Counted from the stretch's first letter, positions 8,643 to 40,832 are shown. The stretch is 45,924 nt of DNA from an uncultured Bacilli bacterium (GCA_947623645.1 CANQHK010000002.1:1-45924); one strand, 5' to 3'. Notes: generated by a model from the letters alone, not told the origin. Made by a program: numbers and translations.

Positions 8643-8652
8643 ATTTTCCCCC

Positions 8653-9719: not shown

Positions 9720-9804
9720 TTATATCACCTAAAATAATCATAATCGATAAAATTTAAAAACTCAAGCAAATAAGCGAAAAAGAAACAAAAAATTTTTGTT
9801 GCAC

Positions 9805-9826
9805 CAAAAAAGGAGGAAAACCTCCT
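9805..9826 (-). terminator. Intrinsic terminator after the Zn-peptidase gene
   Basis: AGGAGG-AAAA-CCTCCT hairpin (9811-9826) followed on the minus strand by TTTTT (plus-strand A-run 9806-9810). The stem overlaps the stop codon. Confidence 0.55.
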
Positions 9827-10529: not shown

Positions 10530-10544
10530 ATTCTTTCCTCCTAT

Positions 10545-26489: not shown

Positions 26490-27010
26490 CTTGGATACCC
26501 CACATACATTGCACCTTTTGTCATAACTCCCCCAACACCATCTTTCCCATATTTTGTCTTTTCAATAATATGAATTAAATCCAAAACCTGATTTCTATCA
26601 GACAAAGCAATACTACTAGCAAGAATAGCAGGATCCAGAGCATGAATATTGACTCGCTTCGGACTTGATGCAAATGTTGCACCTGCTTTAATCAACTCTT
26701 CATAATCACTTTGACAAGCACCAGCAATAATTGCAAGCTTATCCGGACTCTTTTCATAATTTCGAGCAACTTTTACCGCATCTACAAAATAAAGAGAGTT
26801 CTTATAGTTTTGAATATCTGTCTTACTCCCTTTTCTTTTATAATAAGCATCATGTCCTGTAATCACAACAATATCTGGATTTAATTCTTCCAAATAATGT
26901 CCAATTTCTTCTCCGATATTTTCTTCTTCAATACATGCTCCATATGCCATAATATGAAATTTCTGATAAAATTTTAAACATCGATTTAAATAATCTTCAT
27001 CCCCGTCTGC
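26486..27010 (-). CDS. yabG: yabG 3' segment (C-terminal ~172 codons of the sporulation-specific protease YabG, peptidase U57); split gene
   Basis: The ORF-track protein carries IVVITGHDAYYKRKG, IIAGACQSDYEELIKAGATFASSPKRVNIHALDP. Extending the frame upstream of the annotated Met gives *QESADGDEDYLNRCLKFYQKFHIMAYGAC, which matches B. subtilis YabG ...LDGDEAYLKKCLNVYKKIGVPVYGIHC. There is no start codon or RBS at the true N-boundary. Confidence 0.88.
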   Translation of the reverse strand, partial: ADGDEDYLNRCLKFYQKFHIMAYGACIEEENIGEEIGHYLEELNPDIVVITGHDAYYKRKGSKTDIQNYKNSLYFVDAVKVARNYEKSPDKLAIIAGACQSDYEELIKAGATFASSPKRVNIHALDPAILASSIALSDRNQVLDLIHIIEKTKYGKDGVGGVMTKGAMYVGYPR

Positions 27011-27019
27011 TGATTCTTG

Positions 27020-27028
27020 TTAAGTAAC
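27020..27028. repeat. Left element-side inverted repeat TTAAGTAAC (putative recombinase-binding arm)
   Basis: TTAAGTAAC at 27020-27028 is the exact reverse complement of GTTACTTAA at 40536-40544. In the excised circle the two would flank the core with a 21-nt spacer centred on the shared GC of the core. Confidence 0.55.
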
Positions 27029-27166
27029 TTTGTAGGTTTTAAATAAAGGCAACTCTTTGCCATAATGGAGATTTAAGGAATTTCTGGATTTTTTATATTT
27101 ATATTACAGAATTATCTTCTTGAACTGTCCTAATATATACTACCTTTCTTCTAATTATATATCTTC

Positions 27167-30311: not shown

Positions 30312-30394
30312 TTGCACCCTCTCTTTCTTCCTAACTAACTCCACATAATACAATCATTATAAATTGCCTATAAATTTATTTCCAATGTATAAAT

Positions 30395-30520
30395 TTATTG
30401 ATATTTTCCTTCTCGCAGTGTTGACTTCAAATATATTTCAAATGCTTCTAAAATTTTTTCTTGAATTGTTGGAGCATCTTCATCAAAAACACATATAACT
30501 AATTCCTTGCTTTTATTCAT
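30395..30520 (-). CDS. Small unannotated ORF (41 aa) heading the recombinase module; candidate accessory/directionality factor
   Basis: My own translation is MNKSKELVICVFDEDAPTIQEKILEAFEIYLKSTLREGKYQ*. A strong RBS (AGAGGAGGGA) lies 5 nt upstream of ATG 30520. The ORF is below the ORF-track size cutoff. The function is pure inference from position. Confidence 0.4.
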   Translation of the reverse strand: MNKSKELVICVFDEDAPTIQEKILEAFEIYLKSTLREGKYQ

Positions 30521-30565
30521 AGTATCCCTCCTCTTTAAACTTATGAATTTTTTCTTAATTAATGA

Positions 30566-30608
30566 ACAAAAAAATTAGAACAATCTACTTTTGTCTACTG
30601 TTCTAATT
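30566..30608 (-). terminator. Terminator separating the cargo operon from the recombinase module
   Basis: 10-bp perfect stem AATTAGAACA/TGTTCTAATT (30573-30582 / 30599-30608) with a 16-nt loop, followed on the minus strand by T7 (plus-strand A-run 30568-30574). It lies about 150 nt after the stop of the 689-aa gene. Confidence 0.5.
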
Positions 30609-30761
30609 TGTTTCAATAATATAATAAAATTCGGTTTTAAATTTCTTAATTACTTAATATTAATAAGTATTGCTTGATACTTTTTCATGAAGATTGAAAT
30701 CTTTATATGATTTTATCTCAATCACAGTTTCAGCGAAATTATCTATTTTGTTGAATATTTT

Positions 30762-32831
30762 TTATTTTGTAATTGTTTTTCTATCCTTTGCCTTAATTTT
30801 GGATTGATGGTTGGTGTCATATTTTTTCAATATTGCTAATGTTGTTTCTGGAACTAACTGTGCTACTTTTTCCCAATCATTATTATTCAAAGCTTTTCTC
30901 ACTTCTTTCGCACTAATCGCAGTACCATTTATATCCATAAATCGAGGAATTTCAATAACTTCTATTCCATACAATGGCAAATTATTCTTTAATTCTCTAT
31001 TATAGGATGCAGTTATAATATCTGTTTTTTCTTCTCCTACAAATCTCTTTTTTACATTTAACGTCGGTGCAATATAATCAGTAAATATCTCTCTATCTAA
31101 TGATAAATCTAATGTAACATCTGTTTTTTCATCCCTATTAAAATATTCTGGGAAAATCATAGAAGAACCAAAAATTTTTCCACTTGGAATGACTGTTACA
31201 TTCGAAAAATGTTTACAACCATTCTGTACCATTTTAAATCTATCATCAAACTTAAATATAGACTTATCATCTTGAACTACAATAACAAATAATTGTTCTA
31301 CTTGTTTAGAAACATAATCAATTAGATTATAGTGACCATAAGTAAAAGGATTACAATTCATCAATATAGCACCATTAGGACCCCTAGATATGTTCAATTT
31401 TCTAAGCATATTTAAGTATTCCTCAATATACTTATTATTTTCAAAAACTTTTCTTTTAATCTCTCGCTTTATTGGTTGGGCTAATTTTTTATTATCTGGA
31501 TTTCGAATCAATAAATTATTTTCTATTTTACTATACATATATTCAGCAACATGAGAATTAGCAACGTGATTACAATGGGCTGGTTTGTCGATAAAATAAT
31601 TATGAAGAGTAGTATCATTAAATACAGGTAATAAAGAAATCACATCACTATAACCGAGCTCTAATAATCTTTGCTTTTCTTTGCTTGATATTGTAAACAC
31701 CATTTTATCTCCATTTTTTACATTTACAGAATCAGCAATTCGAATTTGTTCAGGCAATTCCATTGCTCTTAAACCATAATTATTTACAGAATAATCCCTA
31801 TCCTCTTTATTTACCTTTCTCTGTAAATAGCTTGCAATGGTGTGTGCATCATCAACTAAAGCACCATATATCATACAAGGACCAAACAAATTGATGTCAA
31901 AAGCATAATCATGAATTTTATCTGTAGTATAGCGAATACCATTAATACTCTTACAAAAATTATTATTTGAATCAGCCAATCGACAAATACCATTTTTGAG
32001 AATTGTCCCAGGAGATAAATTTTTCCTTTCTATGTAATCTTCTGTAAATAAATCTCCCAAAACATTTTCTAATAATTGCCTGATTTCTAAATCATTTTTA
32101 TAATTACTTAAATAGTATATATAATTTACTTTTGCTGCCATCCTTAATTTTTCTGAAAAAGATAAATTCGTAATTTGTTCTTTATCAGGAAATTCAAAAA
32201 CAATTGTCTCATAGTCTTTACATTTTAAAAATTCATTTACAAAATAATAAATTTCAGCATCATTACACAATTCATTAATTGATACATTTTTTGAAATATC
32301 AAGACTTTCAAATCGAGCTTTTTTTACAATTTCTTCCTTCAATTGTTTAGAATTATTGTCCGTATCAATTAATAATGAATTCGGATGAAGTATTGCTTCC
32401 AAATAATGATCATAGGAAGTTTCAAGCAAAACTATCTGAAAATTATTTCCATAAACATTAATATAATTATATAATTCTTGAGATAGCTTTCCCATTATAA
32501 ATACAGTTTCAGGATTTTGACTTCTTACATAATTCATTATTTTATCATTATTGGCATATAAACATTTCCACCTATCTAAATCAATAGAGGTGTCTTTCCA
32601 TTCACTAGAGTTGTTCAGTTCTAAATTTTTTTTATATACAGCTACTTCGTCCATTGATATTTCTAAATTAGCACCACTTAATAAATTATTTAAAAACGAT
32701 TGATATGTAACAAAGTGTGCATCATCAAATGCAACAATAATTTCTTGATTTTGTAAAAATAAATTTATCAGTTTTCTTTTTAAATTTTCTTCTTGCTTAT
32801 TTATATAACAAATATTTTTATTATTTACCAT
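30762..32831 (-). CDS. 689-aa fusion protein: unknown ~470-aa N-terminal region plus a C-terminal CitC-like (citrate lyase ligase-type) nucleotidyltransferase domain
   Basis: The C-terminus GAILMNCNPFTYGHYNLIDY...FTDYIAPTLNVKKRFVGEE...ISAKEVRKAL...LVPETTLAILKKY parallels CitC (NANPFTLGH...; ...RFVGTEP...; ISASRVR...; LVP..TL). The TxGH and ISxxxxR motifs of the cytidylyltransferase-like superfamily are present. I do not recognise the N-terminal region. Confidence 0.65.
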   Translation of the reverse strand: MVNNKNICYINKQEENLKRKLINLFLQNQEIIVAFDDAHFVTYQSFLNNLLSGANLEISMDEVAVYKKNLELNNSSEWKDTSIDLDRWKCLYANNDKIMNYVRSQNPETVFIMGKLSQELYNYINVYGNNFQIVLLETSYDHYLEAILHPNSLLIDTDNNSKQLKEEIVKKARFESLDISKNVSINELCNDAEIYYFVNEFLKCKDYETIVFEFPDKEQITNLSFSEKLRMAAKVNYIYYLSNYKNDLEIRQLLENVLGDLFTEDYIERKNLSPGTILKNGICRLADSNNNFCKSINGIRYTTDKIHDYAFDINLFGPCMIYGALVDDAHTIASYLQRKVNKEDRDYSVNNYGLRAMELPEQIRIADSVNVKNGDKMVFTISSKEKQRLLELGYSDVISLLPVFNDTTLHNYFIDKPAHCNHVANSHVAEYMYSKIENNLLIRNPDNKKLAQPIKREIKRKVFENNKYIEEYLNMLRKLNISRGPNGAILMNCNPFTYGHYNLIDYVSKQVEQLFVIVVQDDKSIFKFDDRFKMVQNGCKHFSNVTVIPSGKIFGSSMIFPEYFNRDEKTDVTLDLSLDREIFTDYIAPTLNVKKRFVGEEKTDIITASYNRELKNNLPLYGIEVIEIPRFMDINGTAISAKEVRKALNNNDWEKVAQLVPETTLAILKKYDTNHQSKIKAKDRKTITK

Positions 32832-32860
32832 ATTACCCTATCCCCTGTATAAACATTATT

Positions 32861-33613
32861 TTACGGACGAACTATAGAAAGAATAAAGTCTATAATTTCA
32901 TCATCATATCCATATAATTCGTGTTTTCCATCTTGTATTGTAGTCAAACTTAATCTATGCTTTGTACAAAATTTTTCTATATTTTCATAAAGAACCGTCT
33001 TATCCAAAGTACCTTGTATAATTGATATATTGTCAAAATTAGAATTTTTTATTTTTTTATCACCATTTTTAAACTCATCATAACTATTTTTATAAATCTT
33101 AATATTATTATATAAAGGCATATACTCATTAGTCTTGAAATAATCATTAGAAATACCAGATTTATTTTCCATTATTTCACAAAAGTTGATTGCTGGACAC
33201 ATTAATATAGTGTTTCGTATATCAGATTTTTTTTCTAAAAGTCGATTTAAAATGACAAAGCCACCAAAACTACAACCAAATAAATAAATAGGTACATTGT
33301 ATTCTTTTGCAACAAAATGAATTACATCATTTAAATAATCAATACACCTGCTTAAAGTAAATTGAGAAAAATCGGTTTTATCTTCTCCGTGCCCAGGAAA
33401 ATCAAAAGCATAAACTCCCAAATTATTTTCTAATAGTCTATCATAAAATCTTGTAGCCCAATTTTTATTACTACCTAGTCCATGACAATAAATAATGATT
33501 CCCTTTAAATGATTACTTGGTATTGCACTAAAAACATTAATTTTTCCCATTAATATGCTATTCATTTTAACCCGTGTATCGTTTTTTGCTATATTAATCT
33601 TATTTTCATCCAT
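32861..33613 (-). CDS. Alpha/beta hydrolase (serine hydrolase)
   Basis: 250 aa. IIYCHGLGSN, FDFPGHGED and the nucleophile elbow GCSFGG (GxSxG). Confidence 0.75.
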   Translation of the reverse strand: MDENKINIAKNDTRVKMNSILMGKINVFSAIPSNHLKGIIIYCHGLGSNKNWATRFYDRLLENNLGVYAFDFPGHGEDKTDFSQFTLSRCIDYLNDVIHFVAKEYNVPIYLFGCSFGGFVILNRLLEKKSDIRNTILMCPAINFCEIMENKSGISNDYFKTNEYMPLYNNIKIYKNSYDEFKNGDKKIKNSNFDNISIIQGTLDKTVLYENIEKFCTKHRLSLTTIQDGKHELYGYDDEIIDFILSIVRP

Positions 33614-33651
33614 AAATATCCCTCATTCATATATAATTTTAAACCATTATA

Positions 33652-34455
33652 TCATATCTTTCCAATATATTTTTCAAACGTCTTTTTATTAGGATAATTT
33701 ATATTATCTAATTCCTTATATAATTTTAGATATTCATAATCTACAGATTGTTCAACAATATCCAATTCTCCATTTTTCTCTTCAAGTATATAATAAATCG
33801 CAGCTTTATCTATAGCTACACCTGTTCCATTCAATGAATAAAACTCTGTCTGATTGAATTTATGATGCCTATAAAAATGATAATGACCATAAATTATAAC
33901 ATCATAATTATCTATAGTATTACCAAAAAACAGTGGATCGTTATCTGCAGAAACAACATTTTTTGTTTTAGGTAAAGTAAATCTTATATCTTTTGAAGTA
34001 TTTGTATCAAAAAAACATTCTGGGTGCTCACCCTCATACTTCCATACACCAGAATAATCATATCGTACATCAATTGGAAAATGACATAAAGCTACTTTGT
34101 GATTATTAAAATTTAATTCAATCGTGTGTGACTGTTCTTTTAAAAATTGAATTTGCTCTTGGCTGAGTTGTTTTTCAGTCCATATAGCATTATAATATCT
34201 TTCTATATTGTGATTTTTCAAATATGGAAAACATTCAGTACCTAATACTATATATTCTTCTGCATTTCCTAATATTGTCATTATATTATTTTCAATTAAT
34301 AAATCTAAACATTCTTTAGGAGAGTTTCCTAATCCTATTACATCTCCTAATGAATATACTTTTCTTATGTTTTTTTTCTTTATATCTTCGAGCACACTTT
34401 TTAATGCTTCTAAGTTAGCATGGACGTCAGTTATTATTGCAATCTTATCTTTCAT
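33652..34455 (-). CDS. Metallophosphoesterase (calcineurin-like superfamily)
   Basis: 267 aa. Motifs IITDVHAN (DxH), SLGDVIGLG (GD), LGNAEE (GNxE) and YGHYHF (GHxH). Confidence 0.8.
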   Translation of the reverse strand: MKDKIAIITDVHANLEALKSVLEDIKKKNIRKVYSLGDVIGLGNSPKECLDLLIENNIMTILGNAEEYIVLGTECFPYLKNHNIERYYNAIWTEKQLSQEQIQFLKEQSHTIELNFNNHKVALCHFPIDVRYDYSGVWKYEGEHPECFFDTNTSKDIRFTLPKTKNVVSADNDPLFFGNTIDNYDVIIYGHYHFYRHHKFNQTEFYSLNGTGVAIDKAAIYYILEEKNGELDIVEQSVDYEYLKLYKELDNINYPNKKTFEKYIGKI

Positions 34456-34471
34456 AATTATACCTCATTTC

Positions 34472-34500
34472 TTGATATTTTATTTACTTTATGATACTAT
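34472..34500 (+). promoter_or_regulatory. Candidate sigma-A promoter (extended -10) for the Tmk-like kinase gene
   Basis: TTGATA (34472-34477), a 17-nt spacer, then TGaTACTAT with -10 TACTAT (34495-34500), about 27 nt upstream of ATG 34527. Confidence 0.4.
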
Positions 34501-34526
34501 AACATAGCCAAGGAAGTGAGCGATTT

Positions 34527-35015
34527 ATGCTAATCATTGAAGGTTTAGATGGTAGTGGTAAAACAACATTAATAAATCATCTTCGAATGGATAATAAAAA
34601 AGTTTTAATACCAGAAAACATTCTTAATTCTTTTGTGAAATACCAAAACCTGTTAAAAGAATTATCATCAGACTCAATGATGGATCGATCTTTTATTAGT
34701 GAAATGGTTTATGGAAAAGTATTGTCTAATAAAACAAAATTAACAGAAGAGGAATACCAACAGTTATTAAGCTTGTACTCCAAAAACAATTCAATTATTA
34801 TATATCTCTATGCACCAAAAGAAATTTTATTAATGCGTAGAACCAGTGATAAAAAAGATCAATTTGTATTATCAAAATTTTATGAAAAATTATTAGATGA
34901 ATTTGAGTATCGTTTAAATCAAGCCCATACTTTTTTACCTACTTATAAAATTAATACTTATGAAAATGATGAAAATCAAGTTCTATCGAAAGTAAAAAAA
35001 CTATCTAAATTCTAA
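34527..35015 (+). CDS. Thymidylate-kinase-like P-loop nucleotide kinase (short form)
   Basis: 162 aa. LIIEGLDGSGKTTL P-loop, MDRSFISEMVYG (DR(Y/F)xxSxxAY-type NMP-binding motif) and a Lys/Arg lid-like segment MRRTSDKK. It is the only plus-strand gene in the element. Confidence 0.7.
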   Translation: MLIIEGLDGSGKTTLINHLRMDNKKVLIPENILNSFVKYQNLLKELSSDSMMDRSFISEMVYGKVLSNKTKLTEEEYQQLLSLYSKNNSIIIYLYAPKEILLMRRTSDKKDQFVLSKFYEKLLDEFEYRLNQAHTFLPTYKINTYENDENQVLSKVKKLSKF

Positions 35016-36287
35016 TTTTTTTGTAAAATTTGGAATATGAATTGTTGAGACAATTTCTGGAGAATAAGTAACGTTTTGATGTCTATCTAATTCAAATGAT
35101 GGTTTCAAACTCAATAATATCAAATCTTGCATCGACAAAATATTTCTCATGAATAAAGCTTTATCATAATGAATAGAAAAATCTCTATTTATATTTTGTC
35201 TTTGTACCAAAGCTATTTTTAACGTATCATTGTTTTTTAATACACTGTCTAATAAACCACCTAAATATGTTAATATTATTTCTGTTTCTCTTTTTGAAAC
35301 ATTATATTCAGATAACAACATTTTCATATTATCCATACAAGCGCTCATATTTCTATTAAAAAATGCTGTTCTATTATATCTTGCCTCATCAATCATATAT
35401 TTACCATTACTAACCAATCTAGATAGAAAAACAGGAGATAATATTGAATAATAATAAGCAGCACCAAAATTATCAGTAGTAAAAAAGTTTGGATATAATT
35501 GATAGTCCCAGTTTTGTTGAAATGAATCAGTTATACCATTTTTTCTAAAAATATCATCAATCATCTTCATACTTTCTACATCACAACAATTAAATTCACC
35601 TGATAAACCATATTTTAAAACAGTTTCTTCAAAATTACTATTAAATCCATGAAAACAATATCCATCGTTAATATACTTTTGTCTGATCAAATTTAGTATT
35701 GTTTCTTTTGGAGTTTTACTAAAATTCTCTTTTTGAAGAATATTTCTAATTAAAATATCATCACATTTTTTTAAAACTTCTTCAAATGACTCACTACTTT
35801 CACAAACTTGTATTAGACAATTATAGTATTCATGAACAAATTTTTCATTTTGAATATCCTCTCTATTTATAATCATATATTGATATATTTTTTGTAGCAA
35901 AAAAGATTGAATAAAGAGTTGTTCATCTGCCCATCCATAATGATGAACACCAATTTGTGTTAAATCATATTTAAAATTTTTTCTATTTAAAATATCAAAT
36001 ATATCTTCTAATAAAGTAATATTAAGTACTTTTTCAAAATATTGAACAAATTCATTTCCATTATTATTTTTTGAAGTTTGGTTTCCATAAATTTTACAAC
36101 TGCCATCAATATCAACATTCATTATATTTCTATGACTTATAATCTTTTTAGACAAGTTATAGTATTCATCTTTTGAAAGTTTCATTTTTTGACAAATCAT
36201 ATTTATTGCTATTTCTTTAAATATCTTTTCTTTAGAGTCCATTTCTACAATCATATTGTATAAATCCATATTTTTATCCATTTTCAT
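35001..36287 (-). CDS. Hypothetical 428-aa protein (orphan; no recognisable motif)
   Basis: Long ORF translationally coupled to the upstream NUDIX gene by a 14-nt overlap. No TM helices or catalytic motifs that I can identify. Confidence 0.5.
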   Translation of the reverse strand: MKMDKNMDLYNMIVEMDSKEKIFKEIAINMICQKMKLSKDEYYNLSKKIISHRNIMNVDIDGSCKIYGNQTSKNNNGNEFVQYFEKVLNITLLEDIFDILNRKNFKYDLTQIGVHHYGWADEQLFIQSFLLQKIYQYMIINREDIQNEKFVHEYYNCLIQVCESSESFEEVLKKCDDILIRNILQKENFSKTPKETILNLIRQKYINDGYCFHGFNSNFEETVLKYGLSGEFNCCDVESMKMIDDIFRKNGITDSFQQNWDYQLYPNFFTTDNFGAAYYYSILSPVFLSRLVSNGKYMIDEARYNRTAFFNRNMSACMDNMKMLLSEYNVSKRETEIILTYLGGLLDSVLKNNDTLKIALVQRQNINRDFSIHYDKALFMRNILSMQDLILLSLKPSFELDRHQNVTYSPEIVSTIHIPNFTKKLEFR

Positions 36288-36708
36288 TTAAATACATTTC
36301 TATAGCTTTTTTCTGATATGGTAATTCTAATTTTTCTAAAATATGATTCTTATCCATTATTATCAACTCGGACTCTTTTTCTAATGGAAGTAATATCTTA
36401 TCATCTATTTCTACTAAAAAAATATGTGCTAATGATTCCATATTAATATTATCTCTAGTAACCCAATAACAATCTATAGTATATAATTCTTTTGCTTTTT
36501 TTACCAAACAGCCACTTTCTTCTAGAAATTCTCTTTTTAAACATTCGAAGCATGATTCACCTTTTTTGATTCCTCCACCTATTAATGAAATTTCATTATT
36601 TTTTTTTGTTAAATACATTTGATTGTTTTTTTCATATATTCCAAAACATGTCTCCCGGAATATATAATGAATTCCCTTAGATTTTATTCCAATTTGTACT
36701 TTTTTCAT
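36274..36708 (-). CDS. NUDIX hydrolase
   Basis: 144 aa with an intact Nudix box, GGGIKKGESCFECLKREFLEESG (GX5EX7REUXEEXGU). Confidence 0.85.
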   Translation of the reverse strand: MKKVQIGIKSKGIHYIFRETCFGIYEKNNQMYLTKKNNEISLIGGGIKKGESCFECLKREFLEESGCLVKKAKELYTIDCYWVTRDNINMESLAHIFLVEIDDKILLPLEKESELIIMDKNHILEKLELPYQKKAIEMYLNENG

Positions 36709-37487
36709 TAATCATCCCACACTTTCCATGGTGCTTTTCCTATTTTTAGTAATTTATTTAAATATTCTCTTTCACTTTGAAAGTCCATACATTGCCAAAA
36801 TCCAAGATGTTTATATGCTGCTACTTGGTTTGTTAAAACGAATTTTTCTAGTATTTCTTTTTCAAATGATTCTGAGTCTGGATTTAATTCTTTTAAAACA
36901 GCCTTATTTATAACCATAAATCCAGCATTAATCCATTCATCATCTTTTAAAAATTTTTCTCTAAAATAATCCACTTTATTATTTCGAATTTCTACAACTC
37001 CAAATCTCTCTTTTCTTTTTACAACGGATATTGTTACCAAACTGCTATTATTTTTGTGAAATTGATATAAGTTCTTGATGTTGATATCAGAAACTGCATC
37101 AGCATAGGTTAAGAAGAAACAATCACTGTCATCATCCAGATACCTTTCGACCCTTTTTAACCGTCCACCTGTCTGTGTATCTAATCCAGTATCAACTAAT
37201 GTTATTTTCCAATCTTCACTATTATCGTTAATGATATGAATATCATTATTTTTAAAATCTAAATTTAAATCCTTTTTTTTATTCATTAAGTTAATAAAGT
37301 ATTTTTTAAATTCTTCTTGCTTATATCCTAAACATATTATAAACTCTTTAACGCCATAATAATAGTAAATTTTCATTATATGCCAAATAATTGGCTCTTC
37401 ACCTACTGTAACCAAAGGTTTAGGCGTTGTATCATTTTCAACCTTTATCCTACTACCCTTACCTCCTGCAAAAATAACACATTTCAT
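36708..37487 (-). CDS. Glucose-1-phosphate cytidylyltransferase-like sugar-phosphate nucleotidyltransferase (RfbF/DdhA family)
   Basis: MKCVIFAGGKGSRIKVENDTTPKPLVTVGEEPIIWHIMKIYYYYGVKEFIICLGYKQEEFKKYF closely follows the RfbF N-terminal signature. At 259 aa the length is typical. Confidence 0.8.
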   Translation of the reverse strand: MKCVIFAGGKGSRIKVENDTTPKPLVTVGEEPIIWHIMKIYYYYGVKEFIICLGYKQEEFKKYFINLMNKKKDLNLDFKNNDIHIINDNSEDWKITLVDTGLDTQTGGRLKRVERYLDDDSDCFFLTYADAVSDINIKNLYQFHKNNSSLVTISVVKRKERFGVVEIRNNKVDYFREKFLKDDEWINAGFMVINKAVLKELNPDSESFEKEILEKFVLTNQVAAYKHLGFWQCMDFQSEREYLNKLLKIGKAPWKVWDD

Positions 37488-37495
37488 ATTTCCTC

Positions 37496-39175
37496 CTATA
37501 TCTTCAAAATACTTGCATTATTAATTGATGTATTCCAATAATATCCCGTTTCTTTTTTTGCAACTATTATTCTTATCCCCAATCTTTCGGTTAAATAGGA
37601 TATTTCATTAAAATCTAGCTCTAAATCTTTTATAATAACAGTTCGATTTTTAAATTCTATTTGATTTTTAGAAATTTTTTTCTGTAACTTTTCTATTAAT
37701 GAAACTATATATTCTTTATCAGGAAATTCAAATTGTTCAAACTTCTTTTTACAAAGATTTCTTTGAGAATTTGGACAATTATTGCAATTCAAGCAGATAT
37801 CTGTATTATAGAAAAATTTTCTATCTGGTTGATGCAAAGCATATCCTAATGCACAACTTGTTGTTTGAAAGATAGGATAATTTCCATTTTTTGCAAGATC
37901 ATTCCATAAATAATCATAAGCTTTATTGTTCCATACATTATCTGACTTTAAAGCATTATTTCTATTTTCTTTCAATTCATTCCATTCTATGTTATCAATA
38001 ATATCATTCGTTGTTTTTAAGCCTATTGCAACAGAAGCTACACAATATTTTTTTACAAATTGATATATTTTAAATATATCTTTTTTACTAGAGTTTTGTG
38101 GAATAAATGGTCTCCAGTAATGAATAATTGTTTTTCCTTTCTGGGATAATTTAATAAAGTTATTTTCTATTATCTTCTTATTAACCCCCACTTCTATATT
38201 TCTGTCCAATCCTGAATAGCTCAAAAAGAATATAAACTTATGACCTAATTTTTCGTAACCATCAATAAAATCAATAAAATCATCAGGAATATCACATTTT
38301 GATATAAAAATTATTGGATTTTTTATTTTTCGTTCCATAAGAATTTCTATTAATTGTTTCAAATATTCTATATTATCTGAAGTAGAAAAAACATCCGTTT
38401 GTGAAAATAAGCATAATGGCATATCAGGGATATAAAATTTGCTTTCTAATAATTGATTTACTGCTTGTTCAGGACTAATTAAAACTATAGGCTTTATTTT
38501 ATTTAATCCTCTCTCTTTAAGAAAACAATACTTACATTGCTTAGGGCAACCTTGTATTGGATTTAAAACTAACCAAGTTGCATGAACATCTACAATTGGA
38601 TAAAATTGTGGTGTTTTTTTCTTTTCAAAATCATTAAGAAACTTCCTTGCATCCATAACCATTTTATTAAATTCAATTTCAAGATCTAGCTTTAAATCAT
38701 ATGCAATAGAAAATACTATTTCAAATAATCGTGCTAAATTGAAATATAAAAAGTCATCTTCTTTCGCAAAACCATATCGTATCTTATAATGCCTATATCC
38801 ATATTTTTCTAAAACTTTTTCGGAAATTTCTCCATACAGTACATTAAAACTCATTAATGCCTCTGATATATTTTCAAATTTGATATAGTTATAATTATAA
38901 TTGTAATTTTGAATATCTAAGTCCAATTTCCAACAAAGGCTAAATAATTGTAATACAATATCGGATAGTTCATCTCCGAGATCATTTATTTTTCTGCCAG
39001 TTTCACCATATTCCTTATGAGATGAAATTAGGTAATTAAAGTGTCCCAATTGAACATTTAATTCAGCTAAAACAGTGATTGCATCCCAACTTTTATTTTC
39101 TGTAATCTTAAATTGTTCTTTTAATTTAACTGCAATTTGGTAATTTTTTTTTATAAATGCTTTAATGTTCTCCAT
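37496..39175 (-). CDS. Fusion protein: N-terminal MazG-like (all-alpha NTP pyrophosphohydrolase-like) region plus a radical SAM domain (SplB/COG1533-like) with a C-terminal Cys cluster
   Basis: The N-terminal pattern VLAELNVQLG...INDLGDELSDIVLQLFSLCWKLDLD resembles small MazG/YpjD-type pyrophosphatases. The CxxxCxxC motif NPIQGCPKQCKYCF is encoded at 38525-38548. A further cluster, CLNCNNCPNSQRNLC, lies near the C-terminus. The likely start is ATG 39175 (GGAGGTAAATATG). The ORF-track start is 39187. Confidence 0.75.
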   Translation of the reverse strand: MENIKAFIKKNYQIAVKLKEQFKITENKSWDAITVLAELNVQLGHFNYLISSHKEYGETGRKINDLGDELSDIVLQLFSLCWKLDLDIQNYNYNYNYIKFENISEALMSFNVLYGEISEKVLEKYGYRHYKIRYGFAKEDDFLYFNLARLFEIVFSIAYDLKLDLEIEFNKMVMDARKFLNDFEKKKTPQFYPIVDVHATWLVLNPIQGCPKQCKYCFLKERGLNKIKPIVLISPEQAVNQLLESKFYIPDMPLCLFSQTDVFSTSDNIEYLKQLIEILMERKIKNPIIFISKCDIPDDFIDFIDGYEKLGHKFIFFLSYSGLDRNIEVGVNKKIIENNFIKLSQKGKTIIHYWRPFIPQNSSKKDIFKIYQFVKKYCVASVAIGLKTTNDIIDNIEWNELKENRNNALKSDNVWNNKAYDYLWNDLAKNGNYPIFQTTSCALGYALHQPDRKFFYNTDICLNCNNCPNSQRNLCKKKFEQFEFPDKEYIVSLIEKLQKKISKNQIEFKNRTVIIKDLELDFNEISYLTERLGIRIIVAKKETGYYWNTSINNASILKI

Positions 39176-39177
39176 AT

Positions 39178-40038
39178 TTACCTCCATATATTCTTTCTTA
39201 ATGTCAATTCTTTCGAATATTCTTCTTTTTCTTCACCATTCAATATTTTTGCTTTATTTTCTAGAACACTCATGTAATAATTAATTAAATTATTTCGAAT
39301 AACACTATTTGATTGTTTTAATATAATTTGGTTATAAAACACATCACAGTAAGACAATACATCATAAGCTTTTTTTACTTGATTTTGGTAATTAGAATTT
39401 CGCATAATACCATTTGAATTTTTATAATAATTGTATCCTATGTAAGGAATACTAGATACACAACTTGAACTATCTAATACTAAAGATGTAATAGCAAAAT
39501 CTTCTTGTAGCTTTCCATTAGGAAATTGAAAATTTTTCTTTTTCCAAAAATCAGTATTATAGGCATATAACCATACAGGACTATATATTTCATAATTTCT
39601 TGCAAATTTATTCAATACATCGATTCCTTTTCTATTTTGAAAGCTAGATGTTACAAATTTTTCTACAATTTTATTATCATCATCAACCATTATTGCCTGA
39701 TAACGAACAACATCATTTTTTGTACTTTGCTCATTTAATTTTTCAAAGAGATTCTTTTCAATCCAATCATCAGAATCTATGAAAATTATAGTGTCTCCTC
39801 GAATTTTTGAAAGTGCATAATTCCTTGCACTACTAACATCTTTAAAATTAACTTTAAAATATCTTATACAAGGATTATCATAATTATTATGTATTAACTC
39901 ATAGGTTCCATCTATACTATAATCATCAACAATAATAATCTCAAAATTTTTATAGGTTTGATGTAATATAGAATTCAAACATCTAGAAATATAATCTACT
40001 CTATTATGTGTTGGAACAATAACACTAAAATCTCTCAT
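39178..40038 (-). CDS. Family 2 (GT-A) glycosyltransferase
   Basis: FSVIVPTHNRVDYISRCLNSILHQTYKNFEIIIVDDYSIDGT and the DxD motif IFIDSDDW. Confidence 0.88.
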   Translation of the reverse strand: MRDFSVIVPTHNRVDYISRCLNSILHQTYKNFEIIIVDDYSIDGTYELIHNNYDNPCIRYFKVNFKDVSSARNYALSKIRGDTIIFIDSDDWIEKNLFEKLNEQSTKNDVVRYQAIMVDDDNKIVEKFVTSSFQNRKGIDVLNKFARNYEIYSPVWLYAYNTDFWKKKNFQFPNGKLQEDFAITSLVLDSSSCVSSIPYIGYNYYKNSNGIMRNSNYQNQVKKAYDVLSYCDVFYNQIILKQSNSVIRNNLINYYMSVLENKAKILNGEEKEEYSKELTLRKNIWR

Positions 40039-40058
40039 TTTACCTCCAGTATTTAAAG

Positions 40059-40103
40059 AAAAAAGTGAATACGAAAGCTATGATGCTTGCCATATCCACT
40101 TTT
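40059..40103 (-). terminator. Intrinsic-terminator-like hairpin inside the 5' leader of the cargo operon (possible attenuator/riboswitch expression platform)
   Basis: Minus strand: AAAAGUGGAUAUGGCAAGC-AUCAUA-GCUUUCGUAUUCACUUUUUU. This is a ~14-bp stem with one bulge and some G-U pairs, followed by U6. It ends about 20 nt before the GT2 start codon, just upstream of the GGAGG RBS. Confidence 0.5.
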
Positions 40104-40146
40104 GATATTTTATATTGCAATTATCACAGGGCAAACACCCTCAAAA

Positions 40147-40175
40147 ATTAGCATTTATTATACAACTAAAGTACC
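40147..40175 (-). promoter_or_regulatory. Consensus sigma-A promoter for the cargo operon
   Basis: On the minus strand: TTGACA (40175-40170), exactly 17 nt, then TATAAT (40152-40147). Both hexamers match the consensus perfectly. The predicted 5' UTR is about 100 nt. Confidence 0.6.
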
Positions 40176-40535
40176 CTTTTGTCAATAGAGTTAACATTAT
40201 TGCAATCATTATTACAGTATAATTATTATTTTAGAGATAATGCTTTTCAAAAAAGTCTTTATCAACTTCACATTTTTGATGTATTACTACAATTAGACAT
40301 ATTCTTTCTATATTTAAAAAAACTATGTATGGCAATAAAAAAAGAACTGAAAATCAATTCAATTCTTGTTATGCATTGTTCGTTAAAATTTATATTCCTT
40401 TTAATTACTTAGGAATATATCCGCCTCTTCAAATGAATGTAATATTTTTTTAAATCACTAAATTTTTTTAATTTTTTCGCTTTATTAGAAATTTTCAATT
40501 TGCTTTTTTCTTTATAACTAAAGGGTTTGCGAGTG

Positions 40536-40544
40536 GTTACTTAA
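40536..40544. repeat. Right element-side inverted repeat GTTACTTAA
   Basis: Exact reverse complement of 27020-27028. It lies 6 nt from the right junction core. Confidence 0.55.
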
Positions 40545-40550
40545 TTTAAT

Positions 40551-40832
40551 GTCAGCATCGATATGTAAGATTTTTCCAGGCAGATAAAAATACTCGTTTC
40601 GATCAAGAGAAAAATCTTTATCCATTCGGTCTAACAAATCTTTATCATCTATGACTTCATCTTTTCCTTCTAACTTTAAATCATCTATTTTACTATCAGC
40701 ATAAAGACGAATATTAACTCCCTTTAAGTAAACCATATCTCCTTCTATTCGGATAATTTGAAAAACGGTATCATTATCATAGGAATTACGACTTACATAA
40801 TCTCCAACATTAAAAAACATAAGATCACCCAA
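40551..40832 (-). CDS. yabG: yabG 5' segment (N-terminal ~94 codons); split gene
   Basis: FNVGDYVSRNSYDNDTVFQIIRIEGDMVYLKGVNIRLYADSKIDDL...YFYLPGKILHIDAD matches the B. subtilis YabG N-terminus (QIGDMVARKSYQMDVLFRIIGIE...RLIADSDFSDL...YFHMPGKVLHLDGD). After ...HIDAD the frame runs 10 unrelated codons (IKLSNHSQTL) into the element and stops at 40518. Confidence 0.88.

What the first reader, a model, noticed from the sequence alone, without database searches (positions are those of the whole stretch)
37496..39175. MazG-like domain fused to an SplB-type radical SAM domain with an extra Cys cluster
- Seen, N-terminal region: the first ~190 aa are all-alpha and carry MazG/YpjD-like helix signatures (LAELNVQLG..., DLGDELSDIVLQLFSLC). 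The first acidic EExxE-type motif is degenerate, so this part may bind rather than hydrolyse an NTP.
- Seen, linker: an NYNYNYNY linker is encoded by a short ATAATT-type repeat near 38885-38910.
- Seen, radical SAM core: the CxxxCxxC motif sits in the context NPIQGCPKQCKYCF. That context is typical of the SplB/COG1533 (spore photoproduct lyase-like) branch.
- Seen, auxiliary cluster: a C-terminal CLNCNNCP...C cluster suggests an auxiliary Fe-S site.
- Established knowledge: radical SAM enzymes do act on nucleotides and NDP-sugars. Examples are viperin (CTP -> ddhCTP), DesII (TDP-sugar) and spore photoproduct lyase (DNA).
- Inference: the fused MazG-like module delivers or recognises a (d)NTP or NDP-sugar substrate for radical chemistry. 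I do not know of a characterised example of this architecture, but I cannot search to confirm that.
Basis: partly seen in the sequence, partly recalled or inferred. Interest (0 to 1): 0.8.

Follow-up and report, generated by a model that had tools for sequence, protein, structure and literature searches.

The report
MazG-like / radical SAM fusion enzyme
This gene encodes an uncharacterised iron-sulfur radical SAM enzyme permanently joined to a nucleotide-pyrophosphatase-like module; the pair recurs (separate or fused in either order) beside nucleotide-sugar enzymes on mobile DNA, so it probably remodels a nucleotide-linked sugar or nucleotide by chemistry not yet described.

Summary
The fusion is real; its biochemical function is unproven. 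The CDS is 37496-39175 (-), 559 aa.

- **N-terminal domain (aa 1-187):** a confident six-helix domain and a divergent member of the MazG / dimeric-dUTPase superfamily. It is an internal pseudo-dimer. The ExxD motif is kept. The ExxE motif is replaced by a conserved QxxH.
- **C-terminal part:** a genuine radical SAM enzyme. CxxxCxxC is present in 65 of 65 complete homologues. Four further invariant cysteines are C441, C461, C467 and C475. C464 of "CLNC" is not conserved.
- **SplB:** no sequence-level link to spore photoproduct lyase was found.
- **Pairing:** outside a Streptomyces clade, the two modules lie next to each other or are fused in both orders. The MazG-like module is also found fused to GT2, to NUDIX and to an uncharacterised protein encoded in the same clusters.
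- **Neighbours:** in every clade examined, the gene next to the radical SAM gene makes or uses a nucleotide sugar.
- **Location:** here the cassette sits in a 13.5-kb recombinase element that splits yabG.
- **Best reading (about 0.5):** radical remodelling of a nucleotide-activated sugar.
- **Prior description:** no Pfam, NCBIfam, PADLOC or PHROG family covers either module specifically, and no paper was found.
- **Verdict:** a new variant of a known kind, of moderately high interest.

The parts
37496..39175 (-). CDS of the fusion protein, 559 aa plus stop. The longer ORF to 39187 is probably not used.
39181..39185 (-). GGAGG Shine-Dalgarno, 5 nt upstream of ATG 39175. It lies within the last codons of the upstream GT2 gene, just before its stop codon, which suggests translational coupling.
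38615..39175 (-). N-terminal all-alpha domain, aa 1-187. It is a divergent MazG / dimeric-dUTPase-like (all-alpha NTP-PPase superfamily) fold and an internal pseudo-dimer.
38927..39175 (-). Repeat 1 (helices 1-3, aa 1-83). It carries E38-x3-Q42-x2-H45 (39041-39064) in place of ExxE, and D68-E69-x2-D72 (38960-38974), the retained ExxD.
38885..38908 (-). NYNYNYNY (aa 90-97), encoded by four imperfect AAT-TAT-type hexamers. It is a variable loop between helix 3 and helix 4 of the N-terminal domain.
38615..38869 (-). Repeat 2 (helices 4-6, aa 103-187). It carries G115, E119 and E123 (38807-38833) and the basic loop R128, K131, R133 (38771-38797). Its own ExxD is lost.
38018..38602 (-). Radical SAM core (aa 192-386, partial TIM barrel). 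C210-x3-C214-x2-C217 lies at 38525-38548. Other conserved motifs are SYSG (aa 319-322) and HYWRP (aa 352-356).
37685..38017 (-). Helical subdomain carrying the four invariant cysteines C441, C461, C467 and C475 (37751-37855). This is the putative auxiliary Fe-S (or metal) site.
37499..37684 (-). C-terminal alpha/beta subdomain (aa 498-559) ending in the conserved YYWNTS motif. Its role is unknown.
39178..40038 (-). GT2 glycosyltransferase immediately upstream. In another lineage (P0125) this GT2 is fused to the MazG-like module.
36708..37487 (-). Glucose-1-phosphate cytidylyltransferase-like gene (TIGR02623, 299.2 bits against a cut-off of 300.25), 8 nt downstream of the fusion gene.
36274..36708 (-). 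NUDIX hydrolase of the cassette.
35001..36287 (-). Orphan 428-aa protein. It has 22 homologues and no domain hit, and was seen here only in the 16 window-type loci.
34527..35015 (+). Small P-loop nucleotide kinase, thymidylate-kinase / deoxynucleoside-kinase-like, on the opposite strand.
30762..34455 (-). Three further conserved cassette genes: a metallophosphoesterase (33652-34455), an alpha/beta hydrolase (32861-33613), and a 689-aa protein with a citrate-lyase-ligase-type nucleotidyltransferase C-terminus (30762-32831).
40157..40185 (-). Candidate operon promoter, TTGACA-17-TATAAT. It is the only 12/12 consensus match in the region and lies ~120 nt upstream of the GT2 start.
27005..40556 (.). 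Mobile element of about 13.5 kb that carries the cassette. It is low in GC (about 25% against about 32%), encodes two large serine recombinases (27167-28741 and 28722-30353) and splits yabG. The junction cores are GCAGAC at 27005-27010 and GCTGAC at 40551-40556.

Best explanation
The gene encodes a two-module enzyme.

**Module 1 (aa 1-187)**
- It is a single-chain pseudo-dimer of the MazG / dimeric-dUTPase (all-alpha NTP pyrophosphohydrolase) fold.
- Its composite site keeps the ExxD carboxylates (D68, E69, D72).
- The site also has E38, E119 and E123, and a basic loop (R128, K131, R133).
- A conserved Q42-x-x-H45 replaces the ExxE pair.
- It therefore recognises the phosphoanhydride of a nucleotide. 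It either only holds the nucleotide or cleaves it with altered metal chemistry.

**Module 2 (aa 192-559)**
- It is a radical SAM enzyme. One [4Fe-4S] cluster on C210/C214/C217 cleaves SAM to the 5'-deoxyadenosyl radical.
- A second, four-cysteine site (C441/C461/C467/C475) probably holds an auxiliary cluster used for substrate anchoring or electron transfer.

**Proposed function**
- The two modules act on the same nucleotide-linked substrate.
- In this cassette the substrate is most likely the CDP-hexose made by the cytidylyltransferase encoded 8 nt downstream.
- The radical SAM module abstracts a hydrogen atom from the sugar (or ribose) and remodels it, for example by dehydration, epimerisation or C-C bond formation.
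- The MazG-like module grips, or afterwards cleaves, the nucleotide diphosphate handle.
- The upstream GT2 passes the product to an unknown acceptor.
- The whole cassette is cargo of mobile elements.

**Shown:** domain identities, conserved residues, obligate pairing, neighbourhood.
**Inferred:** substrate class, order of steps, Fe-S nature of the second site, any catalysis.
For: **N-terminal domain**
- The model is confident: pLDDT 90.9, six helices.
- With the close-family profiles (full-length A1 and N-domain A3), the three best PDB hits are all MazG-type pyrophosphatases. With the broad profile, YpjD scores 4.6e-4, followed by 5ie9, 1vmg, 4qgp, DCTPP1 and a phage dimeric dUTPase.
- Of 80 family members, 30 hit Pfam MazG, 11 hit MazG-like (best 8.4e-7) and 3 hit PRA-PH. 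No other Pfam family is hit more than once.
- Foldseek finds dimeric dUTPases, DCTPP1 and YpjD in the PDB. In BFVD it finds dUTPase, NTP-PPase and MazG proteins, with TM up to 0.62.
- The two halves are related to each other: hhalign probability 88%, E 3e-6.

**Radical SAM part**
- Pfam PF04055 scores above its gathering threshold.
- The model has pLDDT 95.4.
- Foldseek gives probability 1.0 to PFL-AE, SuiB, spore photoproduct lyase, BioB, viperin and HydE.
- CxxxCxxC is present in 65 of 65 complete sequences, and four more cysteines in 66 of 66.

**Pairing**
- Short-form (~375 aa) homologues have a separate ~186-200 aa gene homologous to the N-terminal domain right beside them, with E values from 7e-63 to 6e-20.
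- The reverse-order fusion, radical SAM followed by the MazG-like module, occurs in at least five clusters.
- The MazG-like module is also fused to GT2, to NUDIX and to the neighbouring 297-aa protein.

**Neighbourhood**
- Glucose-1-phosphate cytidylyltransferase in this window, GalU-like, MurA-like or MurD-like genes sit directly next to the radical SAM gene in different clades.
- Glycosyltransferases are usually present.

**Operon structure**
- The genes are tightly packed, with an overlapping stop and Shine-Dalgarno.
Against: - No biochemical datum exists for any member.
- The window protein itself gets no Pfam MazG hit. All MazG-type sequence hits are weak; only the broad-profile hit to YpjD (4.6e-4) falls below 1e-3. 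Foldseek E-values for the N-terminal domain are modest (0.04 in the PDB, 3e-3 in BFVD).
- The type of nucleotidyltransferase differs between clades (CDP-type against GalU-type). Most members of the Streptomyces clade lack the MazG-like partner. The substrate may therefore differ across the family.
- The cassette also contains nucleotide kinases, phosphoesterases and a CitC-like ligase, which a simple NDP-sugar tailoring route does not need.
- One Streptomyces context (pFRL6) is rich in dCTP and cytidine deaminases, which points to nucleotides rather than sugars.
- I could not inspect model coordinates, so the geometry of the four-cysteine site and the facing of the two active sites are untested.
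Confidence: 0.5

Rival explanations
1. Nucleotide or DNA hypermodification, or an antiviral nucleotide analogue.
- The MazG-like module works like T4 gp56 or a dimeric dUTPase, converting a (d)NTP to (d)NMP.
- The radical SAM module modifies the base or ribose, in a viperin-like or new way.
- The cassette kinases re-phosphorylate the product.
- GT2 with CDP-glucose glycosylates the modified nucleotide or DNA.
- The mobile element gains protection from restriction or from phage.
For: - The best fold matches of the N-terminal domain are dimeric dUTPases and phage NTP-PPases.
- A thymidylate-kinase-like gene lies in the cassette.
- The Streptomyces pFRL6 and L032 context is: P-loop kinase, two dCTP deaminases, cytidine deaminase, methyltransferase, GalU, radical SAM, GT, HAD. 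It sits next to Tra genes, with a MazG gene upstream.
- The cassette is carried on an ICE-like region, on plasmids and on recombinase elements.
- A distant relative sits beside the SIR2-HerA defence genes, followed by a DEDDh exonuclease and a P-loop protein.
- Viperin is among the fold matches.
Against: - No hydroxymethylase or thymidylate-synthase-like enzyme, and no DNA-binding domain, was found in any cassette.
- There are no hits in 50,697 GenBank phages and only one true member in IMG/VR.
- PADLOC has no model for it.
- The most constant neighbour is a sugar-1-phosphate nucleotidyltransferase or another nucleotide-sugar enzyme, not a nucleotide kinase.
- The deaminase context occurs in only 2-3 loci.
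Confidence: 0.2
2. A step in a secondary-metabolite pathway, for example a high-carbon or otherwise modified nucleoside or sugar antibiotic. This would resemble PolH/NikJ acting on the enolpyruvyl-UMP made by the MurA homologue NikO/PolA, or TunB in tunicamycin biosynthesis. The product would be a diffusible small molecule rather than a glycoconjugate of the cell.
For: - In 13 Streptomyces loci the order is GT4, hypothetical gene, class II aldolase, MurA-like, radical SAM. A 'DUF6415 natural product biosynthesis' gene lies nearby.
- PolH is a radical SAM enzyme that uses a MurA-homologue product (PMC5365060).
- An ABC transporter lies near some loci.
Against: - The gut-Bacilli cassette has no transporter, no resistance gene and no other hallmark of a biosynthetic cluster.
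- No sequence link to PolH/NikJ or TunB was tested or found.
- The cassette is small and is carried by mobile elements.
Confidence: 0.1
3. A peptide or protein-modifying radical SAM maturase (RiPP-like). In this reading the MazG-like module acts as a non-catalytic helical recognition or scaffold domain.
For: - Some split loci carry an HprK-related P-loop kinase and an ATP-grasp (RimK) gene.
- An auxiliary cysteine site is present.
- SuiB, CteB and anSME appear among the fold matches.
Against: - There is no precursor-peptide gene and no room for one in the tightly packed operon.
- There is no SPASM or twitch cysteine pattern, and the four cysteines lie in helices.
- There is no PqqD/RRE hit.
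- The invariant acidic and basic residues of the N-terminal domain fit a nucleotide site.
- The constant neighbours are nucleotide-sugar enzymes.
Confidence: 0.07
4. A spore-photoproduct-lyase-like DNA repair enzyme (SplB/COG1533), with a house-cleaning MazG domain attached.
For: - The motif context NPxxGCxxxCxYCF resembles COG1533 members.
- JGI names homologues P0107 and P0115 'DNA repair photolyase'.
- Spore photoproduct lyase structure 4fhf ranks 5th among fold matches.
- The host has sporulation genes.
Against: - The family profile does not find spore photoproduct lyase in the PDB even at E<=10.
- No SplB model is hit in NCBIfam.
- The fold similarity is generic (TM about 0.4, the same as PFL-AE, BioB and viperin).
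- The family occurs in organisms not known as endospore-formers: Streptomyces, Rickettsiales, Micavibrio and CPR.
- The neighbours are sugar and nucleotide enzymes, not repair genes.
Confidence: 0.03

Closest known systems
MazG / all-alpha NTP pyrophosphohydrolase superfamily (YpjD, DCTPP1/RS21-C6, HisE, dimeric dUTPases, T4 gp56-type dCTPase)
   Same: - All-helical bundle.
- The retained ExxD helix aligns in register (DELSDvlLQl... against EEigDVLf.l...).
- The two-repeat single-chain layout resembles dimeric dUTPases and phage NTP-PPases, with TM up to 0.62.
   Different: - The ExxE pair is replaced by conserved Q42-x-x-H45, with an extra invariant E38.
- The second repeat has lost ExxD.
- The window protein is below every Pfam threshold.
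- It forms its own small family: 178 cluster representatives at E<=0.001 in 1.84 billion.
- It is always tied to a radical SAM partner.
OxsB/OxsA of oxetanocin A biosynthesis (radical SAM enzyme plus nucleotide phosphohydrolase partner; from my own knowledge, not tested here)
   Same: A radical SAM enzyme works together with a dedicated nucleotide phosphohydrolase-type protein on a nucleotide substrate.
   Different: - OxsA is an HD-domain protein, not MazG-like.
- OxsB is cobalamin-dependent.
- The two are separate proteins.
- There is no sequence relationship.
Viperin / prokaryotic viperins (CTP to ddhCTP)
   Same: - It has the radical SAM fold: 6q2p at E 4.6e-5, rmsd 3.2 A over 197 columns.
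- It would use a nucleotide triphosphate substrate.
- Viperin is associated with nucleotide kinases and with conflict or mobile contexts.
   Different: - There is no sequence-level similarity.
- Viperin has no auxiliary cysteine site and no MazG-like module.
- PADLOC viperin models do not hit.
Spore photoproduct lyase SplB / COG1533 radical SAM proteins (PA0069, Rv2578c families)
   Same: - The sequence context of the cluster-binding motif is similar.
- The partial TIM-barrel fold is shared.
   Different: - There is no profile-level match to spore photoproduct lyase.
- The C-terminal architecture differs: a helical four-cysteine subdomain plus an alpha/beta subdomain.
- The genomic context differs.
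PolH/NikJ with NikO/PolA (peptidyl-nucleoside antibiotics; PMC5365060) and DesII / AprD4-type sugar-modifying radical SAM enzymes (from my own knowledge)
   Same: - Radical chemistry acts on a nucleotide or nucleotide-activated sugar supplied by a neighbouring enzyme.
- The Streptomyces clade sits directly after a MurA homologue, as PolH follows PolA in its pathway.
   Different: - No homology has been shown.
- PolH carries one cluster (PMC5365060).
- None of these enzymes has a MazG-like partner.

Membership tests
Radical SAM superfamily | CxxxCxxC motif binding the SAM-cleaving [4Fe-4S] cluster, conserved in homologues | tested here: met
   C210/C214/C217 are present in 65 of 66 aligned homologues. 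The one exception is N-terminally truncated.
Radical SAM superfamily | Pfam PF04055 at or above the gathering score | tested here: met
   30.6 bits for the whole protein and 32.8 bits for the C-terminal part alone, against a cut-off of 29.5. The margin is narrow.
Radical SAM superfamily | Partial (beta/alpha)6 TIM-barrel fold | tested here: met
   The AlphaFold2 model has pLDDT 95.4. Foldseek gives probability 1.0 to PFL-AE, SuiB, spore photoproduct lyase, BioB, viperin and HydE.
Radical SAM superfamily | Reductive cleavage of SAM; Fe-S content | not testable with these tools
   Needs anaerobic biochemistry.
MazG / all-alpha NTP-PPase superfamily | All-alpha helical-bundle fold related to solved MazG, DCTPP1 or dimeric dUTPase structures | tested here: met
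   - The AlphaFold2 model has pLDDT 90.9 and six helices.
- The top PDB fold hits are dimeric dUTPases (probability 0.99), followed by DCTPP1 and YpjD.
- Among the top BFVD hits, all but one of those that carry a name are dUTPases, NTP-PPases, MazG or PRA-PH (one is labelled 'nucleotide kinase'); TM 0.4-0.62.
MazG / all-alpha NTP-PPase superfamily | Sequence-profile relationship to MazG families | tested here: met
   - The relationship holds at family level only.
- 30 of 80 members hit PF03819, 11 hit PF12643 (best 8.4e-7) and 3 hit PRA-PH. No other family recurs.
- The broad profile hits YpjD at 4.6e-4 and three more MazG-type structures below 0.02.
- The window protein alone gets no hit.
MazG / all-alpha NTP-PPase superfamily | ExxE...ExxD metal-binding signature | tested here: not met
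   ExxD is kept (E69, D72, preceded by D68). ExxE is replaced by Q42-x-x-H45, which is invariant in the close family; Q42 is in at least 90% of the broad family.
MazG / all-alpha NTP-PPase superfamily | NTP to NMP + PPi hydrolysis | not testable with these tools
   Needs an enzyme assay. The altered motif leaves both binding-only and altered catalysis open.
Spore photoproduct lyase (SplB) / COG1533 | Sequence-level membership (match to solved spore photoproduct lyase or to SplB-type family models) | tested here: not met
   - The family profile against all PDB sequences gives no spore photoproduct lyase hit at E<=10.
- NCBIfam gives only 10-11-bit, E 0.14-0.22 hits to the PA0069 and Rv2578c families; the PA0069 hit covers only aa 208-225, around the motif.
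Spore photoproduct lyase (SplB) / COG1533 | Fold closer to spore photoproduct lyase than to other radical SAM enzymes | tested here: not met
   Structure 4fhf ranks 5th (E 1.8e-5, TMq 0.41), behind PFL-AE and SuiB and level with BioB and viperin.
Spore photoproduct lyase (SplB) / COG1533 | Catalytic Cys and Tyr H-atom relay of spore photoproduct lyase; DNA lesion substrate | not tested
   No reliable alignment to spore photoproduct lyase could be made. C294 (SKC) is in 55 of 66 sequences, but its equivalence to the lyase's cysteine is unknown.
SPASM / twitch auxiliary-cluster radical SAM enzymes | C-terminal beta-hairpin-led domain with the CX2CX5CX3C-type seven- (or three-) cysteine pattern | tested here: not met
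   The invariant cysteines are spaced C-x19-C-x5-C-x7-C and lie in or next to helices of an all-helical subdomain.
Known anti-phage defence systems (PADLOC v2) | Match of the signature protein to a defence-system model | tested here: not met
   No PADLOC hit was found for the fusion protein, for short-form homologues or for the separate MazG-like protein.

The most novel reading that the evidence does not exclude
The cassette is a mobile-element-borne pathway that makes a new modified nucleotide.
- The dimeric-dUTPase-like module strips a (d)NTP to the monophosphate and hands it directly to the fused radical SAM module.
- The radical SAM module installs a radical-derived modification on the base or sugar.
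- Cassette kinases re-activate the product.
- GT2 with CDP-glucose glycosylates it.
- The end result is either a previously unknown glycosylated DNA hypermodification that protects the element, or an antiviral nucleotide analogue.

This would be a radical-SAM route to DNA or nucleotide hypermodification outside phages.
Probability: 0.2. Interest if true: 0.85.

Novelty: new variant of a known kind. Interest (0 to 1): 0.62.

Why it matters
- Radical SAM enzymes that act on nucleotides or nucleotide sugars (viperin, DesII, PolH, OxsB) have each revealed new chemistry, and some have revealed new biology such as antiviral nucleotides and antibiotics.
- This is a rare family: 43 of 185,579 species genomes scanned. 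It is transferred horizontally and has its own auxiliary-site architecture.
- It has an obligate MazG-like partner. Fusions in both orders, and fusions of that partner to GT2, NUDIX and an uncharacterised cluster protein, mark the partner as the hub of a multi-enzyme nucleotide-centred pathway.
- The family sits on plasmids, on an ICE-like region and on a sporulation-gene intervening element in gut Firmicutes. That placement points to a role in surface or nucleic-acid modification, or in conflict with phages.
- The split loci give ready-made two-protein systems, and the fused form gives a single polypeptide, for biochemical assignment.

Tried and rejected
- **Pfam on the N-terminal domain alone** gave only noise (DUF2719, DUF4840). 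The link to MazG needed family profiles and fold search.
- **Single-sequence phmmer against the PDB** gave only a ferredoxin fragment at E 5.
- **PADLOC and PHROGs** have no model for either module.
- **The orphan 428-aa neighbour** has only 22 homologues and no domain, so it gave no functional clue.
- **Chasing the Pfam name 'ScmC'** (precomputed faint or weak hits on the 364-402-aa P-loop partners) through the paper library returned only unrelated acronyms. My own Pfam scan did not reproduce ScmC. It gave P-loop/AAA hits instead, and NCBIfam gave a weak match to HprK-related kinases.
- **Paper searches** combining radical SAM, MazG, Nudix, nucleotidyltransferase and glycosyltransferase found nothing describing this architecture or cassette.
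- **All-against-all ORF clustering of neighbourhoods** was swamped by spurious ORFs in high-GC loci.
- **SplB membership** was considered and rejected.
- **SPASM or twitch classification** was considered and rejected.
- **A RiPP reading** was considered and given low weight (no precursor, no RRE).
- **Not possible here:** I could not obtain model coordinates. I had no structure jobs left for a full-length model, so the inter-domain geometry is untested.


Full report
**1. What is there**

The finding lies on a long minus-strand ORF, 37496-39187 by mechanical listing.
- A GGAGG Shine-Dalgarno sits at 39181-39185, five bases before ATG 39175, and runs up to the stop codon of the upstream gene.
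- The database gene call for this very sequence is 559 aa.
- Homologues begin MENIK....

I use 559-aa numbering throughout. Most tool outputs used the 563-aa ORF and read +4. The coordinates of all motifs were recomputed.

The protein has 122 database relatives. About 60 are full length (556-581 aa, down to 40% identity). The rest are ~375-aa proteins that match only the C-terminal two thirds. None carries an informative name: they are labelled 'hypothetical', 'radical SAM protein' or, in JGI, 'DNA repair photolyase'.

**2. N-terminal domain (aa 1-187)**

Pfam and NCBIfam give nothing for the window sequence. Evidence for a MazG-type domain comes from four directions.

*Structure.* An AlphaFold2 model built on 38 homologues is confident (pLDDT 90.9, pTM 0.89) and consists of six helices.

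*Sequence profiles against the PDB.*
- The three best hits at E<=10 for the close-family profiles (full-length A1 and N-domain A3) are all MazG-type pyrophosphatases: 5ie9, 4qgp and YpjD 2gta, with E from 0.03 to 0.7.
- I then searched 1.84 billion cluster representatives with the N-terminal-domain profile. This found only 178 relatives at E<=0.001, mostly stand-alone proteins of 170-220 aa.
- A broad profile of 80 of these hits YpjD at 4.6e-4, then 5ie9, 1vmg and 4qgp below 0.02. DCTPP1/RS21-C6, a phage dimeric dUTPase and HisE follow at weaker values.

*Pfam scan of family members.* The 80 members were scanned one by one:
- 30 hit MazG (PF03819).
- 11 hit MazG-like (PF12643, best 8.4e-7).
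- 3 hit PRA-PH.
- Every other Pfam family is hit by a single member only.

*Fold search.*
- In the PDB the top hits are dimeric dUTPases (probability 0.99), with DCTPP1 and YpjD further down the list.
- In BFVD all but one of the named top hits are dUTPases, NTP-PPases, MazG or PRA-PH proteins (one is labelled 'nucleotide kinase'), with TM up to 0.62 over about 180-220 columns.

*Internal duplication.* The two halves of the domain are related to each other (hhalign probability 88%, E 3e-6). The domain is therefore a single-chain pseudo-dimer, like dimeric dUTPases or tandem MazG proteins.

*Active-site register*:
- The canonical E-E-x-G-E helix reads V-Q42-L-G44-H45 here.
- The ExxD helix is kept as D68-E69-L-S-D72.

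*Invariant residues in the close family:* E38, Q42, G44, H45, E58, R61, D68, E69, D72, G115, E119, E123, R128, K131 and R133. Of these, E38, Q42, D68, E69 and D72 are at least 90% conserved across the broad family.

But the replacement residues are themselves under strong selection. This argues for a working nucleotide/pyrophosphate site with altered metal chemistry, not a decayed one.

*The NYNYNYNY stretch* (aa 90-97; DNA 38885-38908, four imperfect hexamers) is a variable loop between helices 3 and 4 of this domain. It is not the inter-domain linker.

**3. Radical SAM part (aa 192-559)**

- Pfam Radical_SAM is just above threshold (30.6 and 32.8 bits against 29.5).
- The AlphaFold2 model on 66 homologues is very confident (pLDDT 95.4).
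- Foldseek gives probability 1.0 to many radical SAM structures: PFL-AE 1.8e-6, SuiB, spore photoproduct lyase 4fhf 1.8e-5 (rank 5), BioB, viperin 4.6e-5 and HydE. All have TM about 0.4 on the query.
- C210/C214/C217 are present in all 65 complete sequences.
- Four further cysteines are invariant in 66 of 66 sequences: C441, C461, C467 and C475.
- These four cysteines lie in an all-helical subdomain. Their spacing, C-x19-C-x5-C-x7-C, fits neither SPASM nor twitch.
- A final alpha/beta subdomain ends in the conserved YYWNTS motif.

Against the 'SplB-type' label:
- The family profile finds no spore photoproduct lyase sequence in the PDB, even at E<=10.
- The only COG1533-type signals are 10-11-bit NCBIfam hits at E 0.14-0.22 to the PA0069 and Rv2578c families; the PA0069 hit covers only the residues around the motif.
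- I treat this protein as a separate, uncharacterised radical SAM family.

**4. The two modules are an obligate pair**

*Adjacent genes.* In loci with the short (~375 aa) form, a separate gene of 186-200 aa lies directly beside the radical SAM gene. It matches the N-terminal-domain HMM:
- L006, a Clostridium MAG: 7e-63.
- L008, Paenibacillus: 1e-37.
- L009, Acrocarpospora: 6e-20.

*Wider survey.* I examined 43 species genomes holding the family, the session's other loci and one IMG/VR contig.
- Every locus outside a Streptomyces/Kitasatospora clade has the MazG-like module fused or adjacent. Two loci cut off at contig ends, and five distant viral relatives (20-28% identity, L054-L059), are set aside.
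- This includes Ensifer, Micavibrio, an alphaproteobacterial MAG, Shapirobacteria and Saccharibacteria.

*Architectures of the N-terminal-domain family*:

| Architecture | Examples |
|---|---|
| MazG-like then radical SAM (this protein) | P0023, P0062 |
| Radical SAM then MazG-like (at least five clusters) | P0127, P0175, P0204, P0243, P0259 |
| GT2 then MazG-like | P0125 |
| MazG-like then IDI-type NUDIX | P0133; L053 ORF |
| MazG-like then the 297-aa protein encoded next to it in Paenibacillus | P0162 |

Independent fusions in both orders, and fusions to several different partners from the same cluster, are classic evidence that these proteins work together.

**5. Neighbourhood**

*In this window* the genes are tightly packed on the minus strand:
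- GT2 (39178-40038).
- The fusion gene.
- A glucose-1-phosphate cytidylyltransferase-like gene (TIGR02623, 299.2 bits against a cut-off of 300.25).
- NUDIX.
- An orphan 428-aa gene.
- A metallophosphoesterase.
- An alpha/beta hydrolase.
- A 689-aa protein with a citrate-lyase-ligase-type nucleotidyltransferase end.
- A small thymidylate-kinase-like gene on the plus strand.

The same block recurs in about 16 loci from uncultured gut Bacilli, Mollicutes and Clostridia MAGs and one Roseburia-labelled genome bin. A 54%-identical relative keeps GT2, NUDIX fused to the hydrolase, the nucleotidyltransferase and the CitC-like gene. It adds two more GT2 genes, an acetyltransferase and a HAD hydrolase.

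*The gene directly beside the radical SAM gene in other clades:*

| Neighbour | Where |
|---|---|
| GalU-like nucleotidyltransferase | Clostridia, Paenibacillus, Streptomyces pFRL6 |
| MurA-like enzyme, in the order GT4, hypothetical, class II aldolase, MurA, radical SAM | 13 Streptomyces loci, many on linear plasmids |
| MurD-like ligase | L035, L036 |

The common denominator is an enzyme that makes or uses a nucleotide sugar, usually with a glycosyltransferase nearby. This is the main basis for my preferred substrate class.

*An exception in flavour* is the pFRL6/L032 context: P-loop kinase, two dCTP deaminases, cytidine deaminase, methyltransferase, GalU, radical SAM, GT and HAD. It lies beside Tra genes with a canonical MazG gene upstream. 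This context looks like deoxypyrimidine-nucleotide metabolism and keeps a nucleotide or DNA-modification reading alive.

**6. Mobile context**

*In this window:*
- The cassette lies in a low-GC stretch (about 25% against about 32%).
- It is bounded by two large serine recombinases (27167-30353).
- It is flanked by the two halves of yabG. The N-terminal piece (40518-40832) matches Peptidase_U57 positions 1-62. The C-terminal piece (26486-26998) matches positions 112-280.
- The reading frames meet at near-identical cores, GCTGAC at 40551-40556 and GCAGAC at 27005-27010.
- veg, spoVG and yabP follow.
- The element is therefore about 13.5 kb and interrupts a sporulation gene, in the manner of skin-type intervening elements. 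That comparison is from my own knowledge.

*Elsewhere:*
- The same cassette sits next to type IV secretion (conjugation) genes.
- It also sits beside a serine recombinase.
- It occurs on Streptomyces plasmids.
- There is no match in 50,697 GenBank phages.
- A distant relative on an IMG/VR contig follows SIR2-HerA and precedes a DEDDh exonuclease and a P-loop protein. The same pair of genes follows the radical SAM gene on a Streptomyces plasmid.

**7. How it most likely works**

*Shown:*
- Two folded modules with conserved putative active-site residues.
- Obligate pairing of the modules.
- Nucleotide-sugar enzymes as constant neighbours.
- Operon-like packing, with a perfect sigma-70-type promoter match at 40185-40157.

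*Inferred:*
- The radical SAM module generates a 5'-deoxyadenosyl radical and remodels a nucleotide-activated sugar. Here that sugar is probably the CDP-hexose from the adjacent cytidylyltransferase.
- The MazG-like module holds, or later cleaves, the nucleotide-diphosphate handle.
- GT2 transfers the product.

I put about 0.5 on this. Alternatives:

| Reading | Confidence |
|---|---|
| Nucleotide or DNA hypermodification, or antiviral nucleotide | 0.2 |
| Nucleoside or sugar natural product | 0.1 |
| Peptide maturase | 0.07 |
| Spore-photoproduct-lyase-like repair | 0.03 |

**8. Comparison and novelty**

- The closest functional precedents are radical SAM enzymes that need a nucleotide-handling partner or substrate: OxsB/OxsA, viperin, PolH with the MurA homologue PolA (PMC5365060) and DesII. 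These comparisons rest partly on my own knowledge.
- None shares the MazG-like partner or the helical four-cysteine subdomain. No homology to any of them was shown here.
- No Pfam, NCBIfam, PADLOC or PHROG family covers either module specifically.
- Six paper searches and one follow-up reading found no description of this architecture or cassette.
- I rate it a new variant of a known kind. It is a real, rare, horizontally mobile enzyme pair that is ready for biochemical assignment.

Noticed in passing
window 26486-26998 and 40518-40832 (junction cores 27005-27010 and 40551-40556): The sporulation protease gene yabG is split into two halves by a low-GC element of about 13.5 kb. The element carries two tandem large serine recombinases (27167-28741 and 28722-30353). 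This resembles skin-type intervening elements that excise during sporulation. ksgA lies upstream; veg, spoVG, yabP and yabQ lie downstream.
   Followed up: partly
window 40157-40185 (- strand): A perfect TTGACA-17-TATAAT promoter match lies ~120 nt upstream of the GT2 start. It is the only 12/12 match in 10.6 kb, although the overall count of promoter-like sites is no higher than in shuffled sequence.
   Followed up: no
L061 (Streptomyces sp. F12 plasmid pFRL6, NC_023286.1) 1957-11349; also L032: An operon reads: P-loop kinase, two dCTP deaminases, cytidine deaminase, SAM methyltransferase, GalU, radical SAM homologue, glycosyltransferase, HAD. It lies next to conjugal transfer genes, with a canonical MazG gene upstream. 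It looks like a plasmid-borne deoxypyrimidine or DNA-modification or nucleotide-depletion cassette.
   Followed up: partly
L033, L034, L037-L042, L045, L046, L060, L062, L063 (Streptomyces/Kitasatospora): A conserved block reads: GT4, hypothetical (~240 aa), class II aldolase, MurA-like enolpyruvyl transferase, radical SAM homologue. It is often on large linear plasmids and mostly lacks the MazG-like partner. This recalls the PolA/PolH (NikO/NikJ) logic.
   Followed up: partly
L055 6991-12215 (IMG/VR contig); L062 7956-10768: A distant radical SAM relative (28% identity) is followed by a DEDDh 3'-5' exonuclease and a small P-loop (AAA_28) protein. It lies directly after a SIR2-HerA defence pair. 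The same exonuclease and ATPase pair follows the radical SAM gene on a Streptomyces plasmid.
   Followed up: partly
P0229, P0256: The MazG-like module is fused to a further ~170-aa C-terminal domain that has no Pfam hit. The domain carries an 'NLHHIHA(A/P)D' motif that reminded me of nucleoside diphosphate kinase. This was not tested.
   Followed up: no
P0162, P0176, P0180 and others; L008 11750-12643; L009 11739-12527: A 260-300-aa protein family is fused to, or encoded next to, the MazG-like module. It has a conserved 'R(V/I)D.N..NF(I/V)...(L)VD(I).PP' motif reminiscent of kinase catalytic and metal-binding loops. It has no Pfam family.
   Followed up: no
window 34527-35015 (+) and 35001-36287 (-): The thymidylate-kinase-like gene is the only plus-strand gene of the cassette. 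It converges on, and overlaps by 15 nt, the 3' end of the orphan 428-aa gene. The arrangement is conserved in the homologous loci.
   Followed up: no
window 30762-32831 (-): In this 689-aa protein only the last ~260 aa match citrate-lyase ligase or HIGH-type nucleotidyltransferases. The first ~430 aa have no family hit. In L001 an AMP-binding (acyl-adenylate-forming) enzyme follows it.
   Followed up: no
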